A stretch of DNA of 63,856 nucleotides, filler included, from Aduncisulcus paluster (Eukaryota), in assembly GCA_024181965.1 (NCBI GenBank). It is 27 parts of 27 records of this genome, joined end to end, with 100 filler letters (N's around TTAATTAATTAA, not from the genome) between each part and the next. Parts side by side here need not be neighbours in the genome. Positions count along the whole stretch, not along the records: positions 23,248 to 25,208 come from BQXS01000210.1; 26 more parts are not named here. One strand, written 5' to 3'. Under the pieces are notes generated by a model. The model was given only the letters and a program-made list of their open reading frames with translations. It searched no databases and was not told where the DNA came from. Within the stretch, counting starts at the first letter, position 1. The number at the start of each line of letters is the position of its first letter. This document shows positions 5,182-62,684 of this stretch, piece after piece. Position numbers and translations under genes: made by a program.

Positions 5182-6109
5182 TCTATCAGATGGAGTGGTT
5201 TGTCTTGTCTAGCAATGGAGAAATCGTGTTTATTTGCCAATGGGATGTTCATTCGTGCAGTATCAGTGTTTCATTCGAGTGTGTTATATTGATGCCACTA
5301 ATAACTACAAACTTAATCATCTAAATAATTCTTTTGGAAATGGTGTCAATGGTTACTTGATATTTCTATACATTCTTTTCAATAAAAGTAACGTTTTCAG
5401 CATTGTAACATTACATTCACCCTTAATTTCGACAGTTTCATCCCGNNNNNNNNNNNNNNNNNNNNNNNNNNNNNNNNNNNNNNNNNNNNTTAATTAATTA
5501 ANNNNNNNNNNNNNNNNNNNNNNNNNNNNNNNNNNNNNNNNNNNNATGTGTCATCGATATGGCCATGCACCCAAGCAGAACATTCTTCAATATCACTCAA
5601 TGATCTGAATTTGTCATATATATTTGCAAATGAATATTCAATAATCTTTTGGAGAGAAAAATATATCCCTTCGGTTATTCCACCATATACATTTGGCAAC
5701 AATTTAGTAACATAAGGGATTATGCTCTCAGCTTGGCATGTTACAGAATTCGCAGAAAGAGTAGGAATAAATGTCCTTCTAAGGATGAAACAGATGTCTT
5801 TTGGGGTCTCTTGAACAAGACAGACCTCTTATGGCTTCCTGTACAAGCCGAACTTTCTCAAAATAACGTAATTCTCGACTGATATGGGTACAAGCAGAAA
5901 TGTTACTCCTGGTTCTAGTAGTACTTGTAACGGATGTCAATGTAAGCGGTTCATCAGCCCCAGCTCCAAAATCATCTTCCATTAATGGGAGAGTTGTGTC
6001 TATAGAGGTATGGCTGCTATCGATAAGAGCCCGACACTGAGCAACCATACTATTTTCAATGGTGTTTGCCTGAAACTCTTTGATCTTACAGAGAGTCATT
6101 TCAGGGTCC

Positions 6110-6199
6110 TGTTATCTTCTATGAAGACTTGGATCAAATTTATTAAAAATAAACGGTTGTCGATCGGAGTTCTAAAAATAGACCAATGAGAATCTCACA
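6110..6199 (-). mobile_element. Putative short (~90 bp) 3' LTR
   Basis: Minus strand reads TGTGAGA...AATAAA...GATAACA, directly after the purine tract GGGGGAAG (6200-6207) and downstream of a chromodomain ORF. The far (CA) boundary is inferred. Confidence 0.6.
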
Positions 6200-6256
6200 C
6201 TTCCCCCAGAACTGCGATCACGGCAGAGAGTACAATCATTCGGAATGGGATAAAAT

Positions 6257-6329
6257 TGCGAGGATAGGGATTTGAACCCCGACTCATGGTTTATGAGCCA
6301 AAAGACAAAACCAGTTGAGCCATTTCTTT
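6257..6329 (-). ncRNA. tRNA-Met(CAT)-derived Pol III cassette in retrotransposon 3' UTR
   Basis: A box TGGCTCAACTGG, CTCATAA loop, B box GGTTCAAATCC and downstream T4. Acceptor and D stems are not paired. Confidence 0.7.
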
Positions 6330-6812
6330 GGTTAAGAAATTCTGTGGCCGACTGATCTTTGCAAATTTTCCGGCTTGTGTTCCCTTCCATATTCGTTTTT
6401 CTCTGCACCTGTTATTTTGTTTACAACTCTTTTTTACAAATTTATACGCTTATCCTTCTTGTATTATTTTGGTTTAATTATAACTATTTTCTTAGAGCGG
6501 ATCATCTTGTACTGATCGATTGTATCCTATCTTCCGCTCTAGTGACCGTACGTTGATTCTAACATCATTTTTAGCGTCTCCTCAACGTTATCGTTTTTAA
6601 ATGTAACTTTTTATCTTACTTTCCACCACTTCATTTTTTTTGATGATTTCTGCTTCCTGTATCTCCCTGGTTTCCTGCGTTCATCCGAATTCGTCTTGAA
6701 AATATATTACTACTCCTTGATCTCTTCCCCCATATTAAAGCATATCCTCCAGTTTCAGTGTCACTATTTTCTTGACTTGATCATTGTTGATTTCTACACT
6801 TTTGCTTTAATA

Positions 6813-7146
6813 TCACCTTAATTTGACAGACTTTTCGGCCAGACGCCTCCTCAACGTGGGATTCCTTATCAAATAACCAGTCATTTGTTCTTCTAACCCT
6901 CTCACTTCGTCCCATGACAAGTAAGCGTTCTCCTCGAAGTTTTTCCATTTAATTTTAAACGAGATAGGCGTTTTCTTACCTCCTCGATGCGAAATGATTC
7001 GCTCTACTTCCCACTCATCTGAGTCTCGGCACTGAACCGATAGTAGCTCCTCCTCCTTTTCTCTCAGTATCACCTTCCTGGTTCTTTCCGTTCCCACCGT
7101 TTTTACATTGTGGTTCGCCAGATTTGAAATTTTAACTCTCCATGGG
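6813..7146 (-). mobile_element. Ty3/Gypsy integrase C-terminal chromodomain (partial)
   Basis: EWEVERIISHR...FKIKWKNFE..AYLSWDEV; frame is open to the contig edge. Confidence 0.85.
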
Positions 7147-7725
7147 CTNNNNNNNNNNNNNNNNNNNNNNNNNNNNNNNNNNNNNNNNNNNNTTAATTAA
7201 TTAANNNNNNNNNNNNNNNNNNNNNNNNNNNNNNNNNNNNNNNNNNNNCCAAATATTGTGCTTTCAAACGACGAACGCATGAACCTCGCAAAGCTCGTGT
7301 GCGACAGAATTTCAAACTAGAAACTGGAAGTATCCAATATATAATATAATAAAAATATCAAAAATAAATAAAATGAATAAAATGCTGTGCAAAAATAATT
7401 TAAGCATGAAATATCCTTACTTCTGTCCACACATCACACTGAAGCTGAAAGAACAGCACTTTTCGTTACAACTACGAGAGAATCTTTTGTGTTCGACCCG
7501 CTATTTCAGTATGTTTCCCCGATTCATGAAAAATATTTCTGTTGCTTTTCCTTTCGTTCTTTTTCATTTATTATTATTCTCTTTGTTATTCCTCACCATC
7601 CTTCTATTTGCATTCCTAGTCTGCTGGTCAATCGCATCTTCATCATTCATTCGTTCGTAATTTGTACACTCTAAGACTATTTCTATCTTCCATTGGTTGG
7701 TTGGTTGTTTCTTCCGTTTTCTACA

Positions 7726-16491: not shown

Positions 16492-18838
16492 AAGTGGTTT
16501 GTCTGAGCCAGGGAACGTAGAAGACATCTCTGTACCGGAATTCTCGGGAACAAGAGATCCACGAAGGGAATCAGAAGTTGTATTGCCATCGTGACTCACA
16601 CCAGATGTGCCACCGTTCTTTCCTTGGGAAATACTCTGATCTTCCTTAGCGGAAACAGAACCATCGACATTGGTTGTTGAACGCTGAGATTTGTCCCCTG
16701 GGAATGTTGGTTGATGACCACTTATAGATGACTGTGCCTGCTCTGAAGATGAACCACCAGATTGTCCAACAAAACCACCTTTTCCTTTCTCTCTCTCCCT
16801 CCTTCTGATCTCTGCATCAGTTTGTTGATGGGATATGTCGCCACTCCAACCATCGTGAACAGTCTCGCTTATGGCACCATATCCAGCTCTGACAACCTCC
16901 TCGACACCATTCACTTTCCTTTTGGTTTCACGAGCAGTGTCACCAACACGCTTAACCTCAGTCATCATGTCTTTAAGGAGTTCATTAAGCTTTGTATGAC
17001 GCTTGACGGCAGCACTGCCTGGATCACGAGCAACACTGACTGTCCCACTCAATCTTTCTTCTGTATCCCTCATATCTCGTGTCTTATTAGCAATTGTGGT
17101 CGCAAGTGAATTGAATGCACCCTGCATACGTCGTAGGGCATCAACTTCTTCTTCTTGAGATGTCACAAGAGCTTCACTGACTCTGTCAATAATAGGATTG
17201 TTCAACATCTGTTTCCGATCAGCTTCGGAATGTCTTCGTTCCATCTCATCCTTAATCAGACGATTCATATAAGAGTGTTCTCGCATGACATCGGCAAGGG
17301 CATTGTCAACTTCCTTCCGTTTTCCTTCGCTATCTTTTCCAACAGAACACGTGGAAAGATCTGTCAGAGTACTATTGAGTCGAGCACGGGCTTCTTCCAT
17401 GTTGCGTTTGATTCTTTCAAGATTACGGTTGAATTCATTTCTATTCTTTTGTTCGTCGGCAAGAATCTCTCTTGCTTGCTCTCTTTCTTCAGGTTTGACA
17501 GATGGACTACCCACAAAAGAAGGGGAAATTCTTGGAAGATATTCTGAACGTTCTTTTGAGAAACTCAGGTAACGCAGTTGGACACCGGCACTACTGATGT
17601 GGTGTGATAGTAATCGAAGCAAGGAATGTTTGGAGTCGTTATATCTTGAAACATTGGCAGAGAGGACGGAGATACAATTATTCATGAATTGTTCAATTTC
17701 ATTCCGTTTCATTTTCTTACCAGTTTCAAGAATACGGCCTTGCAAGGCTCTGACGTCATCACGCACACGAGTAAACGCATGTTCCAGCAAGAAAATGCTT
17801 CGGATAACTTCCAAATCACGAGTTCCCCAGACGCTTCCACTGTAACCGGTCAAACCAGCAATTCCTTGACCATCAGAGATATCAGATTCACTGGTCAACT
17901 CTTTCTCAGAATCTGAAGGAAGACGGACAACTTTCCTTAATTTTTGATCATTGGATAAATCAGAAGGAGGGATTTCGATATCAAACACACAGGCTGTGGT
18001 TGGAATTGAACNNNNNNNNNNNNNNNNNNNNACGAGTTCCCCAGACGCTTCCACTGTAACCGGTCAAACCAGCAATTCCTTGACCATCAGAGATATCAGA
18101 TTCACTGGTCAACTCTTTCTCAGAATCTGAAGGAAGACGGACAACTTTCCTTAATTTTTGATCATTGGATAAATCAGAAGGAGGGATTTCGATATCAAAC
18201 ACACAGGCTGTGGTTGGAATTGAACATTCACGGCCACTAGTACACCCACTGCATGTTATATCCCTCCCACTCTCATCATATATAGTGACACCCATACTCA
18301 GAGGATATAAACTATCATCCTTGGACTTCTTTGAGGCTGTTTTATCAGACCCCAAAGGACTCTTTTCTCCTTCATAGAGGCCTAATCCAGCACCAGGGAC
18401 AACATTGCCATTGCTATCCACATACACACCTCCACATGGAACCACATAAGGTCTTGTCTTCACGGGTAATGAAGCGAAAGAATGAGCATGTCCAGACACA
18501 AATAATTCAACATACTGTTCCCTTGTAAGAGTTATCGTGGGGATAGTTGAGCTCATAATACTTGGAGATAAGTAAACAGATGGCATTTCAACATTACCAT
18601 CGGGATCAGAAGCATCAGAACCAGATCTCTTCTTTTTCTTCAGTTTTTGTCTCTCTTTATCTTGTTCCTTGAGGGTTTTAATGAACATTTGCCGTCTTTT
18701 CTCGATCTGACGCTTCCTGTCTTCATTAACACCAACCACAATGGCCTGTCCAATTGTCAGAGGGACGGGTTTGTCAGTGAAGGGATCAGACACACTCAAG
18801 GAAAGTGGAATGAGAATCCTGTCCAATGTCAAACCCAT
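16492..18838 (-). CDS. Coiled-coil region, probable cytoplasmic continuation of the upstream giant Cys-rich protein
   Basis: The two ORFs join across the gap at 18012 through a duplicated segment. The start overlaps the end of the upstream ORF in another frame. Confidence 0.7.
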
Positions 18839-21800
18839 AGCTATTGTGGGTAACGGAGTGGGAAGAAGAAGGAACGGAAGAGAGAGAAAGAGAAGGAAGT
18901 GGGATCATGTTGGAAGATGAGGAAGATGAGGAAGCAGTCACAGTGGGACTATTTCCAGCAATCTCCATGAGACTCTGTTCCTCATGTTTCTGTAATTGTG
19001 GGACAATCTGTTTATCAAACCAAAATTCATTGAAATCGTTCAGATAACTCTCCTCAGAGCCAGAAGGCAAGGGAACGATAGGGAGAAGCGTATGGAAGGC
19101 ACGAGATTCGTCAGTATCATAGCCCCCTGAATATATACAAGTACCAGTGGATATATCACACACACATCCTACAGAGATGGGAACAACATGTCCTGAAGAT
19201 GGTTGGATGACGAATTGGGAATAATTATCAGATGTGATGGCCACACATACCTTTGGAGTTGACTCAAGGCCAGCCTCAGATATCATGGAATCGAGAGAAG
19301 TGCAGGAATCAAGAAGAATGAAAGTTCCAGGGGCAGGATGGAATATAACACCTGGTTCATCGCTTGTGGTTGGAGGATCCACTGAAGGAACGCTGGAAGA
19401 GCGTGATGTGACGGCAGCAGACTCAGTCTCATCAGAGCTACCACTGGCTGGCTCGGCCTCGCTCGTGTTTGTCATTTCCATCTCACTGCGGGCTGAACCG
19501 GTAGTGTCGGCCAGAGACGGCATTCCAAATGCTGTTGAATGTCCCTTCATGCGTTTGATTCCAGTTCGGACACCAATGTTGATACCTTCAGACAGAACGA
19601 CATGACCGTCTTCATCAATGAAATCACCTACAGGAATGTGATCTAGTGATTCATTGCATAAAATACCACCTCCAATACTTACACCGGCATTATTGGCTTC
19701 AGAACCACCACGATGAGAGGCAGAAATGTTTGGGATTCCTTTCTTGTATTTTCCAATCTCACACATCTTGGACCCTGAGGAGTGCAATTGCTTTCCCTTT
19801 TTAGCCAAGGTTGAAATGGCACGATCAATCCTCTTGACGACCTTGGCACGGACAGTGGGATCATCAGTGTTCATCGCAAGATCAAAGGTGCTCACTAAAT
19901 CGAGCATAAGAGGGGTAATATCGTCAAGGGAACTCTCCAAATGCTCCATCTCTTCTAATCGCTTCTTCTTGGCTTGTTCAAGGCATGTTTGTTGTTTTTC
20001 AAGCATGGATACATATCTGTTGGTGAGTTTGTAACTCAGAGAAGATGTATCAAGTGTTTGAGTGGATGTTACTGATGAATCTTTGAGGGACCATGGTAAA
20101 TGAGAAGGATCAAGACCGATGGAAGGCAATCCTTCTTCACGTTCTGCTTTCTTGAAGACGTCTTCAAATAAAAAGGTGTCGTCAGAGTTAAGAATAGGCT
20201 TCGAATAGGATGAAAGATCAATTAAAAGAGTGGATGTTCGACGAGTAAGGAAGTCGCAGAGATCTTTTACGCTCTTATTGCTAATCTGAACAAGTTCTCG
20301 GACTTCTTCAATATCATTCGCAACATCTCCAACAATGGCGTGAGAAGAGTTAGTAAGATCATCGAGCAAGGAAGGAGTATTATATGCTATTAGCTGGGGT
20401 GGGACTCCTTCAATAGGGGTTACGACAACAGGATCGACAGATCTAAGGTTTGTGGTGTCCATCTTCTCTCTGTCTCTTCTTGTGAGATGAGCATACAAGG
20501 AATAACCACCAAGAACGAGGAATATTGATGTTACACACACAATCAAGATATAATACAACAGGAAGAAAGAGGGTTCAATCGAGATCGACTGAGTTATAAC
20601 TGTATTGAAACCGGCTTCAGCAAGAGCGACTTCAGTGGCTGAACGGATAGACTCACCTTCCTTACATCCTTCCCCGTCATCAACAACATTCACATACATC
20701 AACACGTCAATCTTATCCCCAGTATCCACATTAATAGGTTGGAGGACATAATGTCCAACAGAGTCAAAGGGAAGCCCAACAACGGTGCTCTCGTCGCTCT
20801 GAGAAAGATTACTAAGGGCTTGGCGAAGAGGACCGACATCGAGATCAGTGTTATCAGTCAATGCAGATGTAGTCACAAGCTGTGGAACATAGCCACTCAC
20901 AACATCAAACAGAATGACATCTCCAACACGGAGGCATACAATCGGATTTGTGATACCTGTGGATTCGAATGCATAAGCTTTCGAAGAGATTGGAGTATTG
21001 AACAACGGTTGGGAATCATCATCAGCAGAAATAAATGAGAAAGAAGAAGAAGTTTGTTTTGATTGTACAAAGTTATTATTTTGAATAGAATGTGACATGA
21101 GATCCGCATTTATGCTTAATACTGAGAGACTAGACCGAGTTCCAGTGATTCGGTCATACAATACTTGAGGGTCGACATCATAATAACTCACAAACCCATC
21201 ACTTGACAGACTTGTGTATGTTGTCAGACACTCGTCACTTCGGGTACATTCAAGAGAACCAATGAATCCAGCAGCAGCAAGTTCATTTCCATCAAGAGAA
21301 AGAGTGACACCATCTCCCTCATTGACAAGGGATAACTGTGAGCTTGAGACAGCAGGGGTCGAGAGCACAGACGCATTAGCTTGGCAATCATCACCACAAA
21401 CGCTCCACACGGCCTCTTCTCCGGCACAAACACATGTTCCAAAGGTATAAGAATATACTGCCTTACCATTTGGACAAGTGACGATACAATCCATCGAGTC
21501 TTGAGCCTCTTCTTCAGTCATTTGAGTAGATATACAACGACCATAGGAATCATATACTTCTTGGCTTCCACATGGGGATTTGATAATAGGTTGACAGTCT
21601 AACTTTGAATCAGAGTTAGGAGATTCATTCCCAAGTTCGTCAGTGAAAGTGTATCCAGGTTGACAAACACATGATTTGTCACTTCGTTGGAATGTTCTGA
21701 ATCTACCTGTACACTCACACGTGATACTTCCCACAGAACTATTGCTACTCTCACCACAGCTATTACACGCAGCACGACCAGGAAGGAACGAGAATGAATT

Positions 21801-23147
21801 CACACCACACGATACACAACTACTCTCGTCTGTGGCTTTCTTCTTAGGGTTATAAGTACCACTTGGACAAGGGATGGGGGAGACAAGAGGCTGTCCGCTG
21901 TCATCATACTGAGGACAATAATAACCAGCAGGACACTCGTAACCTCCATCTGTGGACTCGTCGACGGGGGTGGCTGTCTTGGCTCCACCAGAACAGATAT
22001 ACCCAGCGTCACAGACTTCCTGACTCAGACCGGCTGTATCGTCACAGTAATACCCAGCAGGACACGACGAACAGCTTGTCTCTTCGTCAATACGCAAGGT
22101 AGACAGAGAGGCGTTTCCGATAGTTCCAGAAGGACAAGTCGTGGGTTCCTCAGACCCAGCAGGACAGAAGGTACCACGGACACATTGGACAGGCTTGACA
22201 CAGGCTTCGGGACAATAATATCCTTCCGGACAGGCCAAACAATCAGTGAGACTCGTTCCCAATGTTGAGCTTCTGTATGTTCCTGCGGGACATTCCACGG
22301 GATCAATCGAGTGAGCTCCACAGTACATTCCTGCAGGGCAAGGGAAAGAAAGGTAGCTCGCAACAGCATCACGGGGGCAGTAATATCCTTCAGGACAGTC
22401 CAAACAATCGGTCACAAGGGTCCGTTGAGTCAGGTTATTGTATGTTCCAGCTGAACAAGCGATTTTCGTAATTCCATCGCTATCCACAGGGTAAGGACAA
22501 TAATATCCAACTGGACATTCCTGGGGAGACACACCTGTACATATGAATCCACTCTGGCAAGGCTGACAGTCGTCTTCAGAAGAACATCCAACTGTGAATG
22601 TCCAAGTGTTCGTTGTTGTACAGAATGTAGGGGTATCACATCCGGCACTGCAGATGAATCCGATTGGGCATGGTTCTCCGATAGTTGCTGGCATCAAGGA
22701 AAGCACAGGGTCATCCAACTTACCAGGAGTGGGGGTATAGGAAGCTGAACGACAGATGTATCCTGCGTCACAGATATCAGTCGTCACAGACACACAATAA
22801 TCATCAGACTCATCCCAACAATCGGGTTCACTGGCGACATCTTCTTCAAACACACAGTAATGACCCACGGGACAAGGGAGACACTGGTCCTCATCAATGA
22901 GTCCAGTAGTGCCATTGCTATAATATCCATCAGGGCATTTAACTGGAGAGCTACAGCCAGCAGCACAATAGTGCCCTGCAGGACAGGACACACGGTGAGA
23001 TCCACCTGTACAAAAATAGCCTTCAGGGCACTCTGTGCACTCACTCTGTCCAACTTCATCAGTGTAGTAACCAGCAGGACAGACGACGTGATCAACAGTG
23101 GCCTTCTCACACATGGAACCAACAGGACATATATATTCCTTTGGAGT
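18786..23147 (-). CDS. GCC2/GCC3 (ephrin-receptor-like) cysteine-repeat modular membrane protein (5' partial)
   Basis: Many CPAGYYC / CPxGTY repeats and a single TM helix (FFLLYYILIVCVTSIFLVLGGYSLYA). Confidence 0.88.
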   Translation of the reverse strand, partial: TPKEYICPVGSMCEKATVDHVVCPAGYYTDEVGQSECTECPEGYFCTGGSHRVSCPAGHYCAAGCSSPVKCPDGYYSNGTTGLIDEDQCLPCPVGHYCVFEEDVASEPDCWDESDDYCVSVTTDICDAGYICRSASYTPTPGKLDDPVLSLMPATIGEPCPIGFICSAGCDTPTFCTTTNTWTFTVGCSSEDDCQPCQSGFICTGVSPQECPVGYYCPYPVDSDGITKIACSAGTYNNLTQRTLVTDCLDCPEGYYCPRDAVASYLSFPCPAGMYCGAHSIDPVECPAGTYRSSTLGTSLTDCLACPEGYYCPEACVKPVQCVRGTFCPAGSEEPTTCPSGTIGNASLSTLRIDEETSCSSCPAGYYCDDTAGLSQEVCDAGYICSGGAKTATPVDESTDGGYECPAGYYCPQYDDSGQPLVSPIPCPSGTYNPKKKATDESSCVSCGVNSFSFLPGRAACNSCGESSNSSVGSITCECTGRFRTFQRSDKSCVCQPGYTFTDELGNESPNSDSKLDCQPIIKSPCGSQEVYDSYGRCISTQMTEEEAQDSMDCIVTCPNGKAVYSYTFGTCVCAGEEAVWSVCGDDCQANASVLSTPAVSSSQLSLVNEGDGVTLSLDGNELAAAGFIGSLECTRSDECLTTYTSLSSDGFVSYYDVDPQVLYDRITGTRSSLSVLSINADLMSHSIQNNNFVQSKQTSSSFSFISADDDSQPLFNTPISSKAYAFESTGITNPIVCLRVGDVILFDVVSGYVPQLVTTSALTDNTDLDVGPLRQALSNLSQSDESTVVGLPFDSVGHYVLQPINVDTGDKIDVLMYVNVVDDGEGCKEGESIRSATEVALAEAGFNTVITQSISIEPSFFLLYYILIVCVTSIFLVLGGYSLYAHLTRRDREKMDTTNLRSVDPVVVTPIEGVPPQLIAYNTPSLLDDLTNSSHAIVGDVANDIEEVRELVQISNKSVKDLCDFLTRRTSTLLIDLSSYSKPILNSDDTFLFEDVFKKAEREEGLPSIGLDPSHLPWSLKDSSVTSTQTLDTSSLSYKLTNRYVSMLEKQQTCLEQAKKKRLEEMEHLESSLDDITPLMLDLVSTFDLAMNTDDPTVRAKVVKRIDRAISTLAKKGKQLHSSGSKMCEIGKYKKGIPNISASHRGGSEANNAGVSIGGGILCNESLDHIPVGDFIDEDGHVVLSEGINIGVRTGIKRMKGHSTAFGMPSLADTTGSARSEMEMTNTSEAEPASGSSDETESAAVTSRSSSVPSVDPPTTSDEPGVIFHPAPGTFILLDSCTSLDSMISEAGLESTPKVCVAITSDNYSQFVIQPSSGHVVPISVGCVCDISTGTCIYSGGYDTDESRAFHTLLPIVPLPSGSEESYLNDFNEFWFDKQIVPQLQKHEEQSLMEIAGNSPTVTASSSSSSSNMIPLPSLSLSSVPSSSHSVTHNSYGFDIGQDSHSTFLECV

Positions 23148-23247
23148 NNNNNNNNNNNNNNNNNNNNNNNNNNNNNNNNNNNNNNNNNNNNTTAATTAAT
23201 TAANNNNNNNNNNNNNNNNNNNNNNNNNNNNNNNNNNNNNNNNNNNN

Positions 23248-23764
23248 AAGACAACTTTTCATAGGCTCGAATCAATTGGCTGGTGTTGGCTGGAGTGGTG
23301 ATGGATTTAATGAAAGCCAGGACGTCAGATGGATTGGAAGACCCAGATCTGAGCTTCCACATTCTATAAAAGGTTCCGGTGACGCACGAATCTGCCTTTT
23401 CCTGTCCTCCTCTAGCCACGTACAATTCATAGTCCTTTATGAATTTGTTAAGGTCTTTTGGTTCCATTGTATTGATCGTGGGCTTTTTAATGTGTGGATC
23501 GATCGTGGATAAGGATTGGGGTATTTGACTCCCATTTTTGGAAGATGTCGATGGAATTGGTGATCCGATCGATTTTGTCATAGTAGGAAGGTGTTTAACC
23601 TCGAGGCGGACGTGTTTATGGATTTCTTGGGAGGCTTCTTCGAACAGTTTGTGAAGATCTCTTTGTTCCGTCTCTGAGAAGTGATCTGGCTGTTTTAAAG
23701 CCTTGATTAATTCTTTAAGTTGATATTTGGCGGTGGTGGCACCGCATTGTGTAGGTGAAGACAT
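23248..23764 (-). mobile_element. Retrotransposon gag-like ORF (3' partial)
   Basis: Lies downstream of the LTR and leader. KPTINTMEPKDLNKFIKDYELY resembles APTLKEYSLENLNDFFLRYEAY in the ORF at 58552. Confidence 0.7.
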
Positions 23765-23893
23765 TGTTATTGTTGCAAACAATGAGTTAATTAAGAAGTT
23801 TGATTGATAATGCTACGAAAGCAGATAAATTTATCTGAAACGGCCGGGGATCGTCGTAGTAATAAAAACTTACACCTTTTGGTGACCCAAATT

Positions 23894-23924
23894 TACTTTC
23901 ATCGGGGATTTAAACCCGGTATCG
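23894..23924 (-). promoter_or_regulatory. Putative primer-binding site complementary to the element's own tRNA-like RNA
   Basis: Minus strand CGATACCGGGTTTAAATCCCCGATGAAAGTA versus plus strand 24243-24272 CGACACCGGGTTTCGAACCCGAGGAAAGTA. Confidence 0.7.
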
Positions 23925-23951
23925 GATCAGGGCAATTATTCGTTTGCCTGA

Positions 23952-24218
23952 TGTTTATAACGACGAAATAAAAGATATAACAAAATATAAAATAGATAAT
24001 ACTACTAGTATAATAGTATTATAAAAATCATTAGAAAAATAAAATAAATGTTCGTGAGAGAGATTCACAAGATTGATCTCTTTTGCTCACGCTACAAGCG
24101 CAGACAAATTTATTTAAGAACAAACACACGAACCGAAACTCCTAAAAATAGATCTCTGAGAATAATGAATAAAGTAAAATAAATAATAAAAATATGATAT
24201 AATATAAGGTATATTACA
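23952..24218 (-). mobile_element. LTR (~267 bp)
   Basis: Minus strand TGTAATATA...TTATAAACA, preceded by PPT AAAAGGGGCAGGA (24219-24231). The 3' end TTATAAACA is shared with the LTR at 61298. Confidence 0.8.
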
Positions 24219-24240
24219 TCCTGCCCCTTTTAGAAAAAGA

Positions 24241-24312
24241 AGCGACACCGGGTTTCGAACCCGAGGAAAGTATTTCACAAGACAGATGCTCTACCAATTG
24301 AACCAAAATTGA
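24241..24312 (-). ncRNA. tRNA-derived (Thr-TGT-like) Pol III cassette next to the PPT
   Basis: A box TGGTTCAATTGG, D stem GTTC/GAGC, T arm TCGGG-TTCGAAA-CCCGG and T5 terminator. Acceptor and anticodon stems are unpaired. Confidence 0.75.
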
Positions 24313-24991
24313 ATTAATAATATTTTAAACTAAACATATTTGATAGAAAATTATGGTGTTACCTACCATTGGGTTCCCGACAGTTTTTGGCATGCTTCAT
24401 AAAACTAATAAATTATATAAATTATTTATTTACCCATAATTAGAAACATTTGGAGTAAAATATGACAATGTTAATCAGCAAAATTTGGAATTAAGATCAT
24501 TTCAAAAATCATAACAATTTTTTGTCTCAAGAATATAAATCCTGCTTTGTACACATGATCTATAAAAAAGTCGAATCTTACATTTACAATAAGTTAAGAG
24601 GGAAGTATATTTGGTCGATTTACGGCGATATGATAAAATCAAAGAAAAATTGAAAAAAACTGAAATTTTGAAACTTATGGAAAAAGATGTGGTGACCATC
24701 TTGTTTTCGTGAATCTCTAACATATTATTATTTATTATTTTGTTTTATTAATATTATTTCTATTTTATTATTATTTATATTCTTAATTTATTATATTTAT
24801 TATGTTCCAACTTAGTCAATATTCTATTTTTAGATAATCTTGATTCTTCGTATAACTCAGTAAATTGTCTTCAAGCTTAGATTAAATTCCTTTCGGAAGC
24901 CTACTTGATACCACATTTTGATCAAAATTACTATTATCAGGTAATTTATTGTGTTAATTCCGAAACTGTGAAAATTGTGAACTTTCGATAA

Positions 24992-25208
24992 ATGACGAAA
25001 GTTAAAACCGTGAAAACCGTGAAAAACACTTCGAGTGTTAATACTAAGGGTGATTCTGATGTTGTGATAATCGGAAAACGTGGTAGCCCTAAGAGGAAAT
25101 CTGGTGATAGTGTTTCCTCGACCGTGACTCGTGATAAGTCTGAAATTATGTCTCCAACGATTAAATCTAGTGTTGAAAGTGATAAAACCGTTGAAGATTC
25201 CGTGAGTG
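24992..25208 (+). CDS. Hypothetical low-complexity N-terminus (3' partial), possibly element-derived
   Basis: ATG-initiated frame open to the contig edge. Confidence 0.4.
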
Positions 25209-25308
25209 NNNNNNNNNNNNNNNNNNNNNNNNNNNNNNNNNNNNNNNNNNNNTTAATTAATTAANNNNNNNNNNNNNNNNNNNNNNNNNNNNNNNNNNNN
25301 NNNNNNNN

Positions 25309-30128: not shown

Positions 30129-31762
30129 TTATCATCAGCCAGGATTCCAATTGGATCTGAAGGACCCAGGTCACACGAAGATGGTCGTGACTGCAGTGCT
30201 CGGACAACGAGTGTCTGTCGGATCAGATCTGGAAGCCAAGATGATGAAGGAGGCGAAAAGCTTCTGCACTGGGACGAAGATGTCCGAGAGAGTGATTGAG
30301 ACTTACCTGGGCCACTGGCATTCACTAAGAATGGTCTATGACCTGGATCACACGGAGAACGATCTCCGACAGAAGGTTCTGGATTTGTTCATACAAGGAG
30401 TCCAAAACCCAAAGATGGCAGAAAATCTGCAGACTGCTGTGAGGGAAGCTCAAAAGGAGCTTCCGGATGACACCGTTCTCCCGTTAGGGAAGGCTATTGA
30501 CCTTCTGAATGATCAGAAGAAGGGTCTGGATAATCTACTGGCGCTAGCTGAGTTGATGAACCCAAGGAAAGGAGTTCAGAGAACCCGTACAAAGGAAAAG
30601 GATAGAGATCAGGATGAGGACGAGCTCGAGAGCGAGCAAGAACTGTCTGGTCTTTCTGAATCGGAGGAAGAACGTCCGAAGAAGCCTCGTCGCGAGTCGA
30701 AGGAAGTGACGTACTGGGGAATCCCACAGAAGAGAGGAAACTTTCCCCCGTGCCCGTATTGCGAGATGACCAATCATCCGCCCACACATTGTATGAAGGC
30801 ATACGGTGGTGATCACCATCCCTTGGGAAGAGGGAGGAAGGTGCCACTCACCAAGGAAGAAATTGATGGCTACATCCTTGAATTCCCCAAAAAGCTGGGA
30901 CGCAAACCGAACCAGGCAATGAGGGAAGCGCTTCTCCATAAGTGGAAGAGAGAAGCGCTGTTCAACGCCGTCCAACCATGGATGAAGAAAGCTGAGCTAA
31001 TACACTCAGGAGTGAAAGCACTAGTCAAGAGGGGGAAAGAGTACTCCCTCAGCTACGTGCAAAGACGTCTGGCGAGGAAGAATGGAGAAACCTTCCAACC
31101 GGAAGACCTGGATACAGGTAAGAGAAGGGCCTCCAGTAGATCAAGGTACGAGACACCAGTCTCTGGGACGGTACCCCAGTGGGGACCAATGGAAGGAATG
31201 GGACAAAGCATGACACATGCACCCACAGGTCCAAGCTCTGTACGAGGATGGATGATGGAGGTCCCACCAGCGGGTCCTACCGGAACACCTCAAGGAGGAC
31301 CTGGGAATGAATGCTTCCACTGCCACCAGTTTGGACATTTCAAGAGAGATTGTCCACTGTTAACGGAGGAGGAAAGGACCAAGCTCCGGGCCAAGCATGC
31401 GGAGCGGGAAGCAGAGCGCAAGAGAAAGCGTAATGCCAGATCTGGACACAAGGCGGGAGCCGCCAAAATCTCTAATAAAGATGAAGAATGTTATCCGGAA
31501 GAATTAATCAAGATGGACTGGGCGCGAGCCCATTCGAAGATAAACATCAGGAACGCTGATGGGAAAACCACTGAAGTGATGGCCCTGCTAGACAGTGGGT
31601 CGAACATCAACTTGTTGTCCAAAGAGGCAGCCGAAAGACATCACCTGCTCCCAGACAGTTGGGAACGAAAGAAATTGGGTCATGAGATCCTGGGTGTGGC
31701 TTCATCATCCCTCAAGGTTGAGGGTGAAGTGGAGCTGGTGGTCTCTATACAGCGGAAGGGAG
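30129..31762 (+). mobile_element. Ty3/Gypsy gag-protease polyprotein (partial)
   Basis: Zinc knuckles CPYCEMTNHPPTHC and CFHCHQFGHFKRDC, with aspartic protease ALLDSGS in the same frame. Confidence 0.9.

Positions 31763-32190: not shown

Positions 32191-32265
<75 letters not shown>
32191..32265 (+). repeat. Poly(A) tract, 75 nt
   Basis: Seen directly in the sequence. Confidence 0.95.
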
Positions 32266-55327: not shown

Positions 55328-56376
55328 TCACTCCTCATCAGCAGGATCCCTCTTTTCAGTCAGACAGGCGGCACGTTTCTTTTCGGCCCAGAAACGACGA
55401 GCAAATGTCATCCCAACCAGGATCGGGAATACCAAGGTTGCCTCCGCATATATCTTCACAGGGTGAGCAGTGCTCTTGATTTTACCCCAGCTCACAGCTT
55501 CATCGGGACGAGCTCCAGCATCACTGCCGTCAAACTCTTGGGCTGTGGAGATGATGACGGTGTAATCGGCACCCTCACGCATGAGGTTCGCATTCATGAT
55601 GTGATGTTTAGGAATCCCTCCACCAAGGATGATGCATCCACTCTGGCGAGCATTCAGAGCCAGATCATTGATGCGACGAATGTCTCCAACAATGTCCACC
55701 ACGAGACCAGGGTTCTTGTAGGTGTGGAAGAACAGCATGTCACCAATACTACCATCAGTGAGACCAGGACAGAACACGGGGATATCGTTTTTGTATGCCC
55801 AATAATACACACTCTCCTCGTTGTCGATCTCACGACCAAGTCTGTGGATGAACTTCGAAGGTGTCCAACGCACACCTTCCTCATCCTGCTCTTTCTTCAT
55901 CTGGTCAAGGATACCTCCACCAACCAACCAGTCATCGAACAGACAGTAGTTGCTGTTAGGCACAAGCATGTTCCCAATACGATTCAGACCACGACTACGA
56001 AGGTCTGCTCCAGGAAGCTTGAAGTCTCCAAGGTATGTGGGTGCAAGACACTTGATGAAATCCTCCTCAACACCACCAGCTGTCGTGACAATGCAATCAA
56101 CCATCTTGTTCTTCACGAGGAAACGAAAGATCTCACGCATACCACATGAGATCAGGTTTGACGTGTACCCAAGGAAGATTGTGCACTTCACTTGCTTGCG
56201 CTTCTCGGGGTCTTTCATATCCTCATCCTCATCATCAGCGATGGGTTCATCAGACAAACGCCAGTCAAGCATACGGTTCACTTCCTCGATGGCATGGCCA
56301 AGATTGGTTGCCTGGAACCCGAAATGCTTCAAACCATCAAAGAAGTCATCCCAGTTCCGACCTTTGTCAAAGTCAT
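55328..56376 (-). CDS. DHPS: Deoxyhypusine synthase (5' partial)
   Basis: [60 protein letters not shown]. Confidence 0.97.
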
Positions 56377-60590: not shown

Positions 60591-61339
60591 CACTGAACGA
60601 CCGATTGAAAAATATGTTAACGGTGAGCTCCATTCATCATGTTCCTGATGATCCCAATTTCCCCGTTTTTCACACATTATACATCCCTTTCTCAAGTAAT
60701 CCAGTGGAAATCCCTTTCTCAAGTAATCCACAAGAAGAAGAAGAAGAAGAAGAAGAAGAAGAAGAAGAAGAAGAAGAAGAAGAAGAAGAAGAAGAGGGAA
60801 GACATACTGGACGAAAAGAAAGAAAGAGAGCCCCTATTTTATCGGGTATCTTCTGTTGTGTATACAATGAATTAATTTCGAAGAAACTACGTTTATCTTT
60901 GTATGATTCAAATCAAAACAAGACAACTAAGACCTTTTCTCTTTGTCCAGCTGCTCAATCAATTACACCCAAGGCCTCTCTAGATGGAGAGAAAGCCCTT
61001 GACGATGCCATGAAAGAATGTACTGTTCCGACAATTTCAGACCATTGTGTTAGAGATCAACACAATCAAATAACATATACGGTTGATGGGCCAACTTTGT
61101 TGACAATTCCTACATTTTCTTCTGATTCCACTTCCCCAATATCATCCTCACCCCGACAGAGTCCCTATCCATCCCATGATACAAATTGGAGTTGTTCCAA
61201 GAGTGATAGTCAAGGAGGAGATGATACATCGAAAAAAATCTATTCAAGAGAAAACACCAAAGGAATAAATAAAAGGAGTTATAAAATACTCATGGTGTGT
61301 AACGGATATAAAAGATCCGAATATATATTAAGAATATAA
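60591..61339 (+). CDS. Hypothetical poly-Glu protein whose 3' end reads into an LTR
   Basis: (GAA)n at about 60734-60793; the last 13 codons come from the LTR starting at 61298. Confidence 0.45.
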
Positions 61340-61391
61340 AATAATATAAGGAATAGAAAAGAATTATATTATTGGAATGAAATTATAAACA
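61298..61391 (+). mobile_element. 94-bp 5' LTR, copy 1
   Basis: TGTAAC...TTATAAACA; identity with copy 2 begins exactly at TG while the upstream flanks differ. Confidence 0.8.
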
Positions 61392-61585
61392 TACAGGCAA
61401 TCAGGGGGTCAAATAACCCTGATTGGCCGAACTCTGAACCCAAACAATAAATTTGGTCCGATTTTAAAACTTTTAGAATTATAGACCCCTCTAGAGTATT
61501 TCAGATAAATTTATCTGCTTATTATTTTCCGTTTATTACTACAATTTCTTAATTTAAAAAAACAAAGCGATCAGGGAATTTTCAA

Positions 61586-61849
61586 ATGGACTTCGCAAGC
61601 GTAGCTAGTGCTAAACAAGCATTAGATACTATTCTAACAAACGTAAGAAACTACTTCTACTCCCAAAAGGAGGGGAAGGCCATTTCGAAAAAATGCCGAG
61701 ATATTGTTAATGAAATTTCGAAACAAATCACAAAAGAAGCTCCAGCTGTGGTGACCATTCTCAGGGACATTCTAAAAATAGATTGGTTCGCTCGAGATCT
61801 GTTTATTAATAAATTGGACCGCATTATAGTTAGTTTGGCCACATTTTGA
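61586..61849 (+). CDS. 87-aa element ORF upstream of gag, copy 1
   Basis: Complete ATG-to-TGA ORF downstream of the leader. Confidence 0.65.
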   Translation: MDFASVASAKQALDTILTNVRNYFYSQKEGKAISKKCRDIVNEISKQITKEAPAVVTILRDILKIDWFARDLFINKLDRIIVSLATF

Positions 61850-61972
61850 TCAAAATCCTATCAAACTAAAGTTTATTGTATAATTGACGCCAAAATTTTT
61901 CTGNNNNNNNNNNNNNNNNNNNNAATATTGTACCAAGTGTGTATGTTCTGTTTCTTTCTTACCTTGTGATTT

Positions 61973-62066
61973 TGTAACGGATATAAAAGATCCGAATATA
62001 TATTAAGAATATAAAATAATATAAGGAATAGAAAAGAATTATATTATTGGAATGAAATTATAAACA
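61973..62066 (+). mobile_element. 94-bp 5' LTR, copy 2
   Basis: Identical to 61298-61391, with a different upstream flank. Confidence 0.8.
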
Positions 62067-62260
62067 TACAGGCAATCAGGGGGTCAAATAACCCTGATTG
62101 GCCGAACTCTGAACCCAAACAATAAATTTGGTCCGATTTTAAAACTTTTAGAATTATAGACCCCTCTAGAGTATTTCAGATAAATTTATCTGCTTATTAT
62201 TTTCCGTTTATTACTACAATTTCTTAATTTAAAAAAACAAAGCGATCAGGGAATTTTCAA

Positions 62261-62524
62261 ATGGACTTCGCAAGCGTAGCTAGTGCTAAACAAGCATTAG
62301 ATACTATTCTAACAAACGTAAGAAACTACTTCTACTCCCAAAAGGAGGGGAAGGCCATTTCGAAAAAATGCCGAGATATTGTTAATGAAATTTCGAAACA
62401 AATCACAAAAGAAGCTCCAGCTGTGGTGACCATTCTCAGGGACATTCTAAAAATAGATTGGTTCGCTCGAGATCTGTTTATTAATAAATTGGACCGCATT
62501 ATAGTTAGTTTGGCCACATTTTGA
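62261..62524 (+). CDS. 87-aa element ORF upstream of gag, copy 2
   Basis: Identical to 61586-61849. Confidence 0.65.
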   Translation: MDFASVASAKQALDTILTNVRNYFYSQKEGKAISKKCRDIVNEISKQITKEAPAVVTILRDILKIDWFARDLFINKLDRIIVSLATF

Positions 62525-62583
62525 TCAAAATCCTATCAAACTAAAGTTTATTGTATAATTGACGCCAAAATTTTTCTGTTAAA

Positions 62584-62684
62584 ATGGTACAAACAAGAAG
62601 CCAATTGAAAAACGCCAATACAGGTGAAAATGATGAAGAATTTGAAATTGTTGGTGATTTACAAACTGAACGCCATGATAGTGA
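62584..62684 (+). mobile_element. Probable gag start (MVQTRSQ...), 3' partial
   Basis: MxxTRS N-terminus is common in Gypsy gag; open to the contig edge. Confidence 0.5.

What the first reader, a model, noticed from the sequence alone, without database searches (positions are those of the whole stretch)
23894..24312. LTR retrotransposon that appears to encode its own tRNA-derived primer matched to its own PBS
Seen: the minus strand reads tRNA-like cassette (24312-24241) > T5 > PPT > TGT..ACA LTR > hairpin > 31-nt segment (23924-23894) > gag. That segment, CGATACCGGGTTTAAATCCCCGATGAAAGTA, is near-complementary to the cassette's 3' half (complement CGACACCGGGTTTCGAACCCGAGGAAAGTA). There are 13 contiguous pairs including one G-U, a mismatch bubble over the T loop, then 12 of 13 pairs. 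The match extends into a part of the cassette that no longer looks like tRNA (TACTTTCC), which suggests cassette and site co-evolved. The cassette keeps its A box, B box and terminator but has lost acceptor and anticodon pairing, leaving the 3' end free. No TGG-type PBS abuts the LTR. Known: Ty3/Gypsy elements normally use host tRNAs or Tf1-type self-priming. Inference: this is an element-encoded Pol III primer RNA. An alternative is a 5'-3' cyclisation duplex in the genomic RNA.
Basis: partly seen in the sequence, partly recalled or inferred. Interest (0 to 1): 0.9.

Follow-up and report, generated by a model that had tools for sequence, protein, structure and literature searches.

The report
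tRNA-like module in a retrotransposon LTR
A retrovirus-like jumping gene carries a decayed tRNA-gene copy whose 3' half can pair with the element's own 5' region, but the site is in the wrong place to start DNA copying, so it more likely ties the two RNA ends together.

Summary
The sequence features exist and the complementarity is real. The duplex is -36 to -40 kcal/mol, 0 of 200 shuffles reach it, and 25 of 31 columns match. The downstream ORF is a true Gag relative (35% identity to a CCHC/protease/RT polyprotein whose N-terminus is also encoded in this window).

The window is a chain of 27 short contigs joined by N linkers. The element sits on a 1,961-bp contig, is cut inside gag, and shows only one LTR copy.

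A second family (5546-7148) has the same layout: conserved block, tRNA-like cassette with A box, B box and T-run, G-rich purine tract followed by TGT, promoter-like motif, AATAAA, TCAGGCAAAC. There it follows a chromodomain ORF, so the cassette belongs to the element.

Contig breaks in an independent assembly place the LTR 3' end at 23945 or 23836, never at 23925. The 31-nt site is therefore not a primer-binding site in the strict sense.

I read the cassette as a Helenus-like Pol III module in U3 or the 3' UTR. I favour pairing between U3 and U5, that is between the RNA ends (0.4). An element-encoded primer is unlikely (about 0.07). Covariation, host tRNAs and transcripts could not be tested.

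The parts
23836..24368 (-). Repeated unit, my preferred reading of the F1 LTR (533 bp, TGGTAGG...GTTTCA). Shorter readings start at 24218 (TGTAAT) and/or end at 23945 (CAGGCA).
   Evidence: one X1 contig has a loose end at 24366, and contig breaks give last shared bases at 23945 and 23836; the block TGGTAGGTAACAC is shared with F3; no second copy in the window, so the limits are inferred.
24241..24312 (-). tRNA-derived cassette. A-box-like 24305-24294, B-box-like 24261-24251, and a 3' half (24272-24243) that pairs with 23924-23894. No acceptor or anticodon stem.
24234..24238 (-). T5 run directly after the cassette (Pol III terminator-like).
24219..24231 (-). G-rich purine tract AAAAGGGGCAGGA abutting TGTAAT (24218). 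Either the polypurine tract (short-LTR reading) or a conserved block inside U3 (long-LTR reading).
   Evidence: F3 has GGGGGAAG|TGTGAG at the same relative place. Two X1 contigs share this tract but differ upstream of about 24240.
24142..24152 (-). TCTATTTTTAG promoter-like motif. It is also common upstream of host ORFs in the window.
24101..24114 (-). AATAAA, followed by ATAAATTTGTCTG, a 13-nt complement (one G-U) of the palindrome at 23837-23825.
   Evidence: (I2 and D2).
23927..23951 (-). Hairpin TCAGGCAA...TTGCCCTGA. F2 has a hairpin at the same position.
23894..23924 (-). 31-nt segment complementary to the cassette's 3' half. It lies in U5 or the leader, depending on the LTR reading.
   Evidence: I17; I1, I3.
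23822..23837 (-). 16-nt perfect palindrome CAGATAAATTTATCTG at the candidate LTR end. It lies within a 22-mer identical in family F2.
23249..23764 (-). Gag-like ORF, 172 codons, open at the contig end.
23148..23247 (.). N44-TTAATTAATTAA-N44 linker between contigs (assembly artefact). The matching linker on the other side is 25209-25308.
24688..24928 (+). Another LTR family (Z), head to head with F1. LTR TGTGGTGACCAT...GATACCACA (24688-24915), then palindrome ATTTTGATCAAAAT. An ORF starts at ATG 24992.
   Evidence: (loose ends at 24688).
6813..7148 (-). Family F3: end of an ORF with a chromodomain (probable integrase C-terminus). Stop codon at 6815-6813.
   Evidence: Chromo E 2e-5, 24.9 bits, just under the 25.1 cutoff.
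6064..6389 (-). Family F3 unit with the same order of blocks as F1: TGGAAGGGAACAC (6389-6377); cassette with A box 6322-6311, CTCATAA 6297-6291 and B box 6278-6268; TTTT; GGGGGAAG|TGTGAG (6207-6190); TCTATTTTTAG (6182-6172); AATAAATTTG (6144-6135); TCAGGCAAAC (6073-6064).
61298..61750 (+). Family F2, with a second identical copy at 61973-62425. LTR from TGTAACGG; TTATAAACATACAGGCA; hairpin; TTTCA plus the same palindrome (61502-61517); Gag N-terminus (61586-61750) identical to P0002 residues 1-55, then cut by a Z-type LTR at 61747.

Best explanation
Contig 23248-25208 holds the 5' part of a Ty3/Gypsy-type LTR retrotransposon (family F1). The element carries a tRNA-derived module shaped like a Pol III gene: A box, B box at tRNA spacing, and an oligo-T run, but no acceptor or anticodon stem. 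The module sits either in the first part of U3 (my preferred LTR, 24368-23836) or at the very end of the 3' UTR next to the polypurine tract (short LTR from 24218).

Either way, the module lies near the 3' end of the genomic RNA. The 31-nt stretch complementary to its 3' half lies near the 5' end, in U5 or the leader.

I propose that the two pair directly, within one genomic RNA or between the two packaged copies. This would bring the RNA ends together and so help initiation and the first strand transfer of reverse transcription. Ty1 does this with CYC5:CYC3, and Ty3 does it through a bridging tRNA. On this reading the module stands in for the bridging tRNA.

Shown: the module, its conserved position in two families, the complementarity, and that the site does not abut either candidate LTR end.
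Inferred: the LTR limits, the U3/U5 assignment, and any function of the pairing.
For: - The pairing is far beyond chance and dominates the fold. The duplex is -36.2 to -39.7 kcal/mol against -22.5 for the next-best site, and 0 of 200 shuffles reach it.
- In a 441-nt fold of 24320-23880, the pairing closes the whole domain in both the MFE and the centroid structure (z = -5.4, 0 of 100 shuffles).
- 4 of the 6 differences between the arms fall in the 8 T-loop columns (Fisher p 0.026). One of the other two keeps a G-U pair.
- In run X1, the contigs covering the cassette differ from the window at 24276, 24288, 24291 and 24328. They do not differ in the pairing half 24245-24275 or in 23836-23974. 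That is 4 of 53 against 0 of 170 positions, p 0.003. The copies compared may be paralogues.
- The module belongs to the element. F3 has the same eight blocks in the same order and with similar spacing, downstream of a chromodomain ORF. The composite A-box/B-box/T-run pattern hits 2 loci in the window and 0 in 100 shuffles.
- F1 is a retroelement. Its Gag-like ORF matches P0002 (E 1.2e-9 library-wide; RVT_1 3.8e-21).
- There is precedent for 5'-3' pairing needed for reverse transcription. I read passages of PMC4974528 on Ty1 CYC5:CYC3, where CYC5 is also complementary to the primer tRNA's D stem, and on the Ty3 5'-3' bipartite PBS.
Against: - There is no covariation test. Only one family shows both partners.
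- In F3 no complement to its cassette is found anywhere in its contig (best -26.5 kcal/mol, background level). So 0 of 1 other families that can be examined shows the pairing, if the region after its unit is U5 or leader and not flank.
- F2 and Z LTRs have no cassette. The cassette is therefore present in 2 of 4 LTR families in the window.
- Pairing in cis does not explain why the A box, B box and T-run are kept in both families.
- The LTR limits rest on one LTR copy, on contig breaks and loose ends of a contig-only run, and on per-contig depths that the tool says are not copy numbers.
- X1 has no contig with the window's own cassette variant. Two X1 contigs that share the purine tract differ from the window upstream of about 24240. 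The cassette/purine-tract junction of the window is therefore not independently confirmed.
Confidence: 0.4

Rival explanations
1. The cassette is transcribed by Pol III into a small RNA of about 80 nt that pairs in trans with U5 or the leader of the element's RNA. It could act as a regulator of reverse transcription, translation or packaging. In the reader's version it is the minus-strand primer, after its 3' tail is cut at the duplex edge, much as Tf1 cuts its self-primer (that step is recalled, not looked up).
For: The A box, the B box at tRNA spacing (44 nt between box starts in both F1 and F3) and an oligo-T run directly after the cassette are kept in two divergent families, while the acceptor and anticodon stems are gone. 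The same pattern in Helenus LTRs is read as a Pol III promoter (PMC10886601, sections 3.5 and 4.1, read). The cassette's 3' region is single-stranded on its own. No TGG-type PBS follows either candidate LTR end.
Against: For the primer version: the duplex starts at 23924, which is 20 nt past one candidate LTR end (23945) and 88 nt before the other (23836). One unbranched X1 contig spans 23836-23974, so no copy diverges at about 23925, where U5 would have to end. The last 8 or more nucleotides of the cassette RNA are unpaired. No transcript evidence could be obtained. F3 shows no matching site.
Confidence: 0.2
2. The cassette is a Pol III/TFIIIC module of the TRIMp3 (Helenus) kind that entered the LTR, for example as a tRNA-derived SINE. 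It could serve as a promoter, boundary or target element. The complementary 31-mer is a decayed inverted second copy with no pairing function.
For: LTR elements with tRNA-derived sequence in their LTRs are known and are thought to arise by SINE insertion (PMC10886601, abstract and section 4.2). Common descent explains why the match runs into the part of the cassette that no longer looks like tRNA. The pairing is absent in F3.
Against: The differences between the arms are concentrated in the T-loop columns and spare the flanks (4 of 8 against 2 of 23 columns, p 0.026). The pairing parts are invariant between the window and X1 while the rest of the cassette varies. Both tests are weak and post hoc.
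Confidence: 0.2
3. The cassette is a host tRNA pseudogene lying beside an LTR insertion (Pol III-directed integration), or the contig is a chimeric join of repeats. In either case the cassette and the leader do not belong to one element.
For: The contig is a 1,961-bp unplaced piece between linkers, in a nest of repeats, with a Z-type LTR 320 bp away. X1 does not contain the window's cassette variant. Two X1 contigs that carry the purine tract and the start of the short-reading LTR differ from the window upstream of about 24240. Ty1 and Ty3 integrate into regions associated with Pol III transcription (PMC4974528 passage).
Against: The same cassette-plus-blocks unit, with the same order and spacing, occurs on an unrelated contig after a chromodomain ORF. 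Both cassettes are degenerate in the same way, so they are not working host tRNA genes. The specific complementarity to the leader would be a coincidence.
Confidence: 0.1

Closest known systems
Helenus, and with Cassandra and Ajax the 'TRIMp3' group (Kojima 2024, PMC10886601; abstract, Results and Discussion read)
   Same: An LTR retroelement carrying a tRNA-derived sequence in which the A and B boxes are kept but which is not a functional tRNA.
   Different: Helenus elements are 311-1263-bp non-autonomous TRIMs without gag, whereas this element has a Gag ORF. Here a T-run follows the cassette directly, so Pol III could not transcribe the element. [quoted passage not shown] Whether the cassette is inside the LTR here is not settled.
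Ty1 CYC5:CYC3 and the Ty3 5'-3' bipartite PBS (review PMC4974528, passages read)
   Same: Sequences near the 5' end, downstream of or around the PBS, interact with sequences in the 3' UTR/U3. The two genomic RNA ends are brought together and this is needed for efficient initiation. In Ty1, CYC5 is also complementary to part of the primer tRNA, so CYC3 resembles tRNA.
   Different: Ty1 uses a short complementary pair, and Ty3 uses host initiator tRNA as the bridge. Here a whole tRNA-gene-like module, with Pol III boxes and terminator, would supply one strand. No experiment exists for this element.
Tf1-type self-priming
   Same: No tRNA-type PBS, and element RNA pairs with element RNA near U5. 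A 13-nt stretch after AATAAA (24113-24101) is complementary to the palindrome at the candidate LTR end.
   Different: In Tf1 the first bases of the transcript pair with the PBS. Here the transcript start is unknown, and the cassette duplex does not abut an LTR end.
Priming by internal tRNA regions in Copia and Ty5 (as cited in PMC10886601 section 3.6)
   Same: Non-standard use of tRNA sequence in priming.
   Different: Those elements use host tRNA fragments that pair directly next to the LTR. Host tRNAs could not be examined here (0 in the window).

Membership tests
Ty3/Gypsy-type LTR retrotransposon | Gag, then protease and RT, in one element | tested here: inconclusive
   The ORF 23764-23249 is 35% identical over 89 aa to P0002. 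P0002 has a CCHC knuckle and a D[ST]G motif (both seen by eye in the sequence) and an RVT_1 match (3.8e-21). The contig ends inside gag, so pol of F1 itself is not seen.
Ty3/Gypsy-type LTR retrotransposon | Two LTRs in direct orientation with TG..CA ends and target-site duplication | tested here: not met
   Only one copy of the unit is in the window. TG..CA is possible for several limits (24368 or 24218; 23945 or 23836). A target-site duplication cannot be tested.
Ty3/Gypsy-type LTR retrotransposon | PBS complementary to a host tRNA directly after the 5' LTR | tested here: inconclusive
   No TGG-type site follows 23952, 23945 or 23836. No host tRNA is available, and no whole genome is held.
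Ty3/Gypsy-type LTR retrotransposon | Polypurine tract directly before the 3' LTR | tested here: inconclusive
   AAAAGGGGCAGGA abuts TGTAAT in F1 and GGGGGAAG abuts TGTGAG in F3. For the long-LTR reading, F3 has GCAGAGAAAAACGAATA before TGGAAGG, while F1's copy would be a 5' LTR with flank.
TRIMp3 / Helenus | tRNA-derived sequence with A and B boxes inside the LTR | tested here: inconclusive
   The boxes are present. The cassette is inside the LTR only under the 24368 start. That start is supported by one X1 loose end, by a rise in laid contig depth, and by the block shared with F3. It is opposed by the purine tract plus TGT at 24218 and by F2's LTR start at TGTAAC.
TRIMp3 / Helenus | Short non-autonomous element without coding capacity | tested here: not met
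   A Gag-like ORF follows the unit.
tRNA gene | Cloverleaf with acceptor and anticodon stems, scored by tRNA finders | tested here: not met
   ARAGORN finds 0 genes and gives only junk calls at lowered thresholds. The Rfam tRNA match is 14.3 bits against a cutoff of 29 and covers model positions 8-63 only. In the F3 cassette only the T arm matches. The fold of the cassette alone shows only the T arm.
   The duplex begins at 23924. The candidate LTR ends are 23945 and 23836. An unbranched X1 contig covers 23836-23974. The cassette's 3' tail is unpaired.
Tf1-type self-priming | The first bases of the transcript are complementary to the PBS | not testable with these tools
   A 13-nt complement exists between 24113-24101 and 23837-23825, but the transcript start is unknown.

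The most novel reading that the evidence does not exclude
A lineage of gag-encoding LTR retrotransposons carries its own Pol III small-RNA gene, derived from a tRNA. The RNA pairs with U5 of the element's genomic RNA and, after cleavage at the duplex edge, primes or gates reverse transcription. That would be a retroelement supplying its own tRNA substitute rather than borrowing a host tRNA.
Probability: 0.08. Interest if true: 0.85.

Novelty: new variant of a known kind. Interest (0 to 1): 0.5.

Why it matters
LTR elements with small-RNA-gene pieces in their LTRs (Cassandra, Helenus, Ajax) are so far known only as miniature, non-coding passengers. For Helenus, a link between the tRNA-like piece and priming was looked for and not found (PMC10886601, section 3.6).

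Here a gag-encoding element carries such a module, and the module matches the element's own 5' region over 31 nt. If the pairing works, it would show a tRNA-derived module replacing the host tRNA bridge or the short cyclisation motifs known from Ty3 and Ty1. It would also give a simple system for testing how the RNA ends are brought together for reverse transcription.

If the pairing does not work, the locus is still a useful warning. Such modules mimic tRNA genes and primer-binding sites in annotation.

Tried and rejected
- Whole genome: none is held for this window, so genome-wide tRNA prediction and collection of family members were impossible.
- Earlier notes of this scan: nothing by place, words or sequence.
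- Protein searches restricted to longer proteins: no hit with the Gag fragment or with the F3 chromodomain ORF.
- Exhaustive representative search: only P0002 as a real relative. P0003 is a repeat protein at E 2.8e-4 and I disregarded it.
- Metagenome scan with the conserved 20-mer: 7 loci, none with further similarity or a Gag relative, so I treated them as chance.
- P0002 against viral and prokaryote genome contigs: 0 relatives.
- Sequencing runs: no RNA holder is listed. X2 (kind guessed as RNA) has no cover on the cassette. Per the tool this is not evidence either way.
- Rfam on the whole contig at E up to 10: no tRNA hit.
- Self-priming test: pairing of the bases directly after 23945 with upstream LTR sequence gives only -13.5 kcal/mol. 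The F2 equivalent gives -10.8.
- F3's downstream ORFs against P0002: no similarity. The Atlas gave no usable hit.
- Comparison of the sequence upstream of the F1 and F3 cassettes: nothing beyond the cassette and the short blocks.
- Cross-family duplexes (F1 cassette with F2 leader, F3 cassette with F1 and F2 leaders): background level, or only T-arm self-complementarity.
- The '1469-aa ORF' is an artefact of reading through an N linker.
- A low-threshold ARAGORN cloverleaf over 23974-23895 suggested a sense-oriented tRNA-like fold of the leader. I did not pursue it, because such thresholds give 8 or 9 calls of that kind on this contig.
- Literature searches: one search found 2 papers and one search found 17 (15 listed). 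By title and abstract start, none describes a gag-encoding LTR element with a tRNA-like module complementary to its own 5' region. One search found Kojima 2024. Most subscription journals are not in the library, and that paper's supplementary figures and tables could not be seen.
Full report
**What the window is.** The window is not one stretch of genome. It consists of 27 contigs of 1.1-6.8 kb joined by N44-TTAATTAATTAA-N44 linkers. The finding lies on contig 23248-25208 (1,961 bp). The 1469-aa ORF that a plain ORF list shows next to it comes from reading through a linker into an unrelated contig. No whole genome is held. ARAGORN finds 0 tRNA genes in the window and Rfam finds nothing at the gathering score.

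**The observation.**
- cassette 24312-24241, with TGGTTCAATTGG at 24305-24294 and GGTTCGAAACC at 24261-24251
- T5 at 24238-24234
- AAAAGGGGCAGGA at 24231-24219
- TGTAAT from 24218
- TTATAAACA ending at 23952
- hairpin 23951-23927
- the quoted 31-mer at 23924-23894
- ATG at 23764

The cassette's 3' half (24272-24243) and the 31-mer form a duplex of -36.2 kcal/mol. The next-best site in the contig gives -22.5. With two more bases the duplex is -39.7, and 0 of 200 dinucleotide shuffles reach it (their best is -31.8; z = -6.7). 25 of 31 aligned columns are identical.

Because a T arm is self-complementary, I checked the flanks separately. 11 of 13 flank positions match, with P about 3e-5, or about 6e-4 after allowing for offsets and orientation. 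The complementarity is therefore real.

The cassette is not a tRNA. There is only a local Rfam tRNA match of 14.3 bits (cutoff 29, model positions 8-63) in a 161-nt search. No match appears when the whole contig is searched. Alone, only its T arm folds.

**It is a retrotransposon.** The 172-codon ORF from 23764 to the contig end has no Pfam family. An exhaustive search finds one real relative, P0002 (722 aa, E 1.2e-9, 35% identity over 89 residues). P0002 has a CCHC knuckle, a D[ST]G protease motif (both seen by eye in the sequence) and an RVT_1 match (3.8e-21). The first 55 residues of P0002 are encoded letter for letter at 61586-61750 and 62261-62425 of this window. A related family, F2, is therefore present.

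F1 and F2 share three sequence features upstream of gag:
- TTATAAACAT(A)CAGGCAA, followed by a hairpin
- TAAATTTGG
- a 22-mer, TTTCAGATAAATTTATCTGCTT, that holds a perfect 16-nt palindrome

**The cassette belongs to the element.** Contig 5546-7148 (family F3, minus strand) begins with the end of an ORF carrying a chromodomain (E 2e-5, 24.9 bits against a cutoff of 25.1). This is as expected for a chromoviral integrase tail, although a search restricted to longer proteins found no relatives. About 425 nt after the stop codon comes the same series of blocks as in F1, in the same order:

| Block | F3 | F1 |
|---|---|---|
| 5' block | TGGAAGGGAACAC | TGGTAGGTAACAC |
| Spacer to cassette | 67 nt | 63 nt |
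| Cassette A box | TGGCTCAACTGG | TGGTTCAATTGG |
| Cassette B box | GGTTCAAATCC | GGTTCGAAACC |
| T-run | TTTT | TTTTT |
| Purine tract + TGT | GGGGGAAG\|TGTGAG | AAAAGGGGCAGGA\|TGTAAT |
| Promoter-like motif | TCTATTTTTAG | TCTATTTTTAG |
| Poly(A)-signal-like | AATAAATTTG | AATAAATTTG |
| Last block | TCAGGCAAAC | TCAGGCAAAC |

The F3 cassette also has a CTCATAA loop. The composite A-box/B-box/T-run pattern hits these 2 loci and 0 in 100 shuffles. Both cassettes lack the acceptor 5' strand and an anticodon stem. The cassette is thus a conserved module of this lineage, not a host gene that happens to lie nearby. It is present in 2 of the 4 LTR families visible in the window. F2 and a fourth family, Z, lack it.

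**Where the LTR begins and ends.** This cannot be read from a second copy, because none exists in the window.

Contigs of one public run (X1) hold 72% of the contig's sampled words. They give the following:
- One unbranched contig covers 23836-23974 with 0 differences.
- The next contig covers 23248-23865.
- With a 31-letter word (my assumption for these contigs), the breaks put the last shared bases at 23945 (…CAGGCA) and at 23836 (…GTTTCA).
- The two contigs have mean depths of 6651 and 2557. The tool warns these are not copy numbers, so I use them only as a hint that more copies carry 23836-23974 than carry this gag.
- One X1 contig leaves the window at 24366, with a different flank that still supplies a TG before GTAGG.
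- Laid depth rises at that point.
- Two X1 contigs carry the purine tract and TGTAAT but differ from the window upstream of about 24240.

The candidates for the 5' end are:
- **24368 (TGGTAGG).** This is supported by the loose end, by the block shared with F3, by a purine-rich stretch before it in F3, and by the fact that neither contig then needs to be a collapsed assembly.
- **24218 (TGTAAT).** This is supported by the abutting G-rich purine tracts in F1 and F3, and by F2, whose two copies diverge exactly upstream of TGTAAC.

The candidates for the 3' end are 23945 and 23836. I prefer 23836. In family Z the clear LTR end (TGTGG…CCACA) is followed at once by a palindrome, ATTTTGATCAAAAT. The F1/F2 palindrome sits in the same way on …TTTCA.

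My preferred LTR is 24368-23836 (about 55%). What matters for the question holds under every combination: the cassette lies in U3 or the 3' UTR, and the 31-mer lies in U5 or the leader.

**Why it is not the primer site.** A minus-strand primer defines the end of U5, so the LTR must end next to the base that pairs with the primer's 3' end. Four observations count against this:
- The duplex starts at 23924. No X1 contig diverges there, and the stretch 23836-23974 is unbranched.
- The last 8 or more nucleotides of the cassette RNA, T-run included, are outside the duplex.
- F3 has no complement to its own cassette anywhere on its contig (best -26.5 kcal/mol, background).
- What follows the candidate LTR ends is not tRNA-like. 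AACGAATAATTG pairs with upstream LTR sequence only at -13.5 kcal/mol. The other candidate is followed by the palindrome. The palindrome has a 13-nt complement just after AATAAA (24113-24101), which leaves a self-priming scheme open but untested.

**What the pairing most likely does.** In a fold of 24320-23880, the cassette/31-mer helix closes the whole domain in both the MFE and the centroid structure (z = -5.4). The differences between the arms cluster in the T-loop columns (4 of 8, against 2 of 23 elsewhere, p 0.026). One of the two others keeps a G-U pair.

The X1 contigs differ from the window at four positions in the 5' two-thirds of the cassette and just upstream. They differ at none in the pairing half or the 31-mer region (p 0.003). 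These may be paralogues.

Known LTR elements need contact between their RNA ends for efficient initiation. Ty1 achieves it by direct CYC5:CYC3 pairing, and Ty3 by a tRNA bridging a 5' and a 3' PBS part (PMC4974528, passages). I therefore favour direct 5'-3' pairing, with the tRNA-derived module as the 3' partner (0.4).

This does not explain why the Pol III boxes and the T-run are kept. A small Pol III RNA acting in trans remains a serious rival (0.2, of which the primer version is about 0.07). The other rivals are a Pol III/TFIIIC module with a relic inverted copy (0.2), and a host pseudogene or chimeric contig (0.1).

**Comparison with what is known.** Kojima (2024, PMC10886601; abstract, Results and Discussion read) described Helenus. 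These are miniature non-coding LTR elements with a tRNA-derived sequence in the LTRs, with the A and B boxes kept. [quoted passage not shown]

The present locus shares the module but differs in four ways:
- it has gag
- a T-run closes the cassette
- the module matches the element's own 5' region
- its place relative to the LTR start is unsettled

I rate it a new variant of a known kind. My literature searches listed no paper describing such an element. The library lacks most subscription journals, and supplements were closed.

**Limits.**
- There is one LTR copy, and only one family shows both partners.
- No host tRNAs and no transcript data are available.
- The contig-only run lacks the window's own cassette variant, so the junction at about 24240 is not independently confirmed.

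Noticed in passing
whole window; e.g. 23148-23247, 25209-25308: The window is a pseudomolecule: 27 contigs joined by 26 linkers of N44-TTAATTAATTAA-N44, plus 7 N20 gaps inside contigs. ORFs and repeats that cross linkers are artefacts, for example the 8-nt-period 'repeat family' and the 1469-aa ORF.
   Followed up: yes
24688-25208 (+); 61747-61903 and 62422-62684 (+): A fourth LTR family (Z). Its LTR runs TGTGGTGACCAT...CCACA (229 bp in the copy at 24688-24915) and is followed at once by the palindrome ATTTTGATCAAAAT and then an ORF (ATG 24992; ATG 62584). One copy lies head to head with F1. The others cut the F2 gag after codon 55.
   Followed up: partly
23822-23837; 61502-61517; 62177-62192; 24915-24928; 61843-61856; 62518-62531; 6012-6031: A palindrome sits at or just after the candidate LTR end in F1, F2 and Z, and an imperfect one lies after the F3 unit. 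No TGG-type PBS is present. In F1 a 13-nt stretch after AATAAA (24113-24101) is complementary to the palindrome. This may point to self-priming or priming between paired genomes in this group. It was not tested.
   Followed up: partly
1924, 24823, 27815, 38127/38142, 38705/38720, 39095/39110 (+); 6182, 24152, 48664/48649, 61782, 62457 (-): The 11-mer TCTATTTTTAG recurs 16 times exactly, often as pairs 15 nt apart, shortly upstream of ORF starts and inside the LTR units. It is probably a core promoter motif of the host that the LTRs also use. At 1924 it may instead be the 3' end of a short intron.
   Followed up: partly
61298-61903 and 61973-62578: Two 100% identical copies of LTR, leader, 55 gag codons and a Z-type LTR lie on either side of an N20 gap, with different upstream flanks. 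This is either a real duplication or a scaffolding artefact.
   Followed up: no
5779-6099 and 5547-5828 (-): An ORF starts at an ATG inside the F3 unit (6099) and seems to continue in another frame across a GT...AG stretch of about 47 nt. It has no relatives and no similarity to Gag. It could be a host gene driven from the LTR, or it could be noise.
   Followed up: partly
16492-23147 (-): A very long cysteine-rich ORF (1453 aa without a stop on its contig) with internal repeats and a weak ephrin-receptor-like match (E 7e-4).
   Followed up: no
30129-31762 (+): A contig that is one open frame of 544 aa, with a weak CCHC knuckle and a weak aspartyl-protease match, at 51% GC. It is probably the gag-protease part of yet another retroelement.
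   Followed up: no
32191-32265; 55331-56374 (-): A run of 75 A, which is odd inside a genomic contig, and a clear deoxyhypusine synthase gene (E 3e-120) among the unplaced contigs.
   Followed up: no
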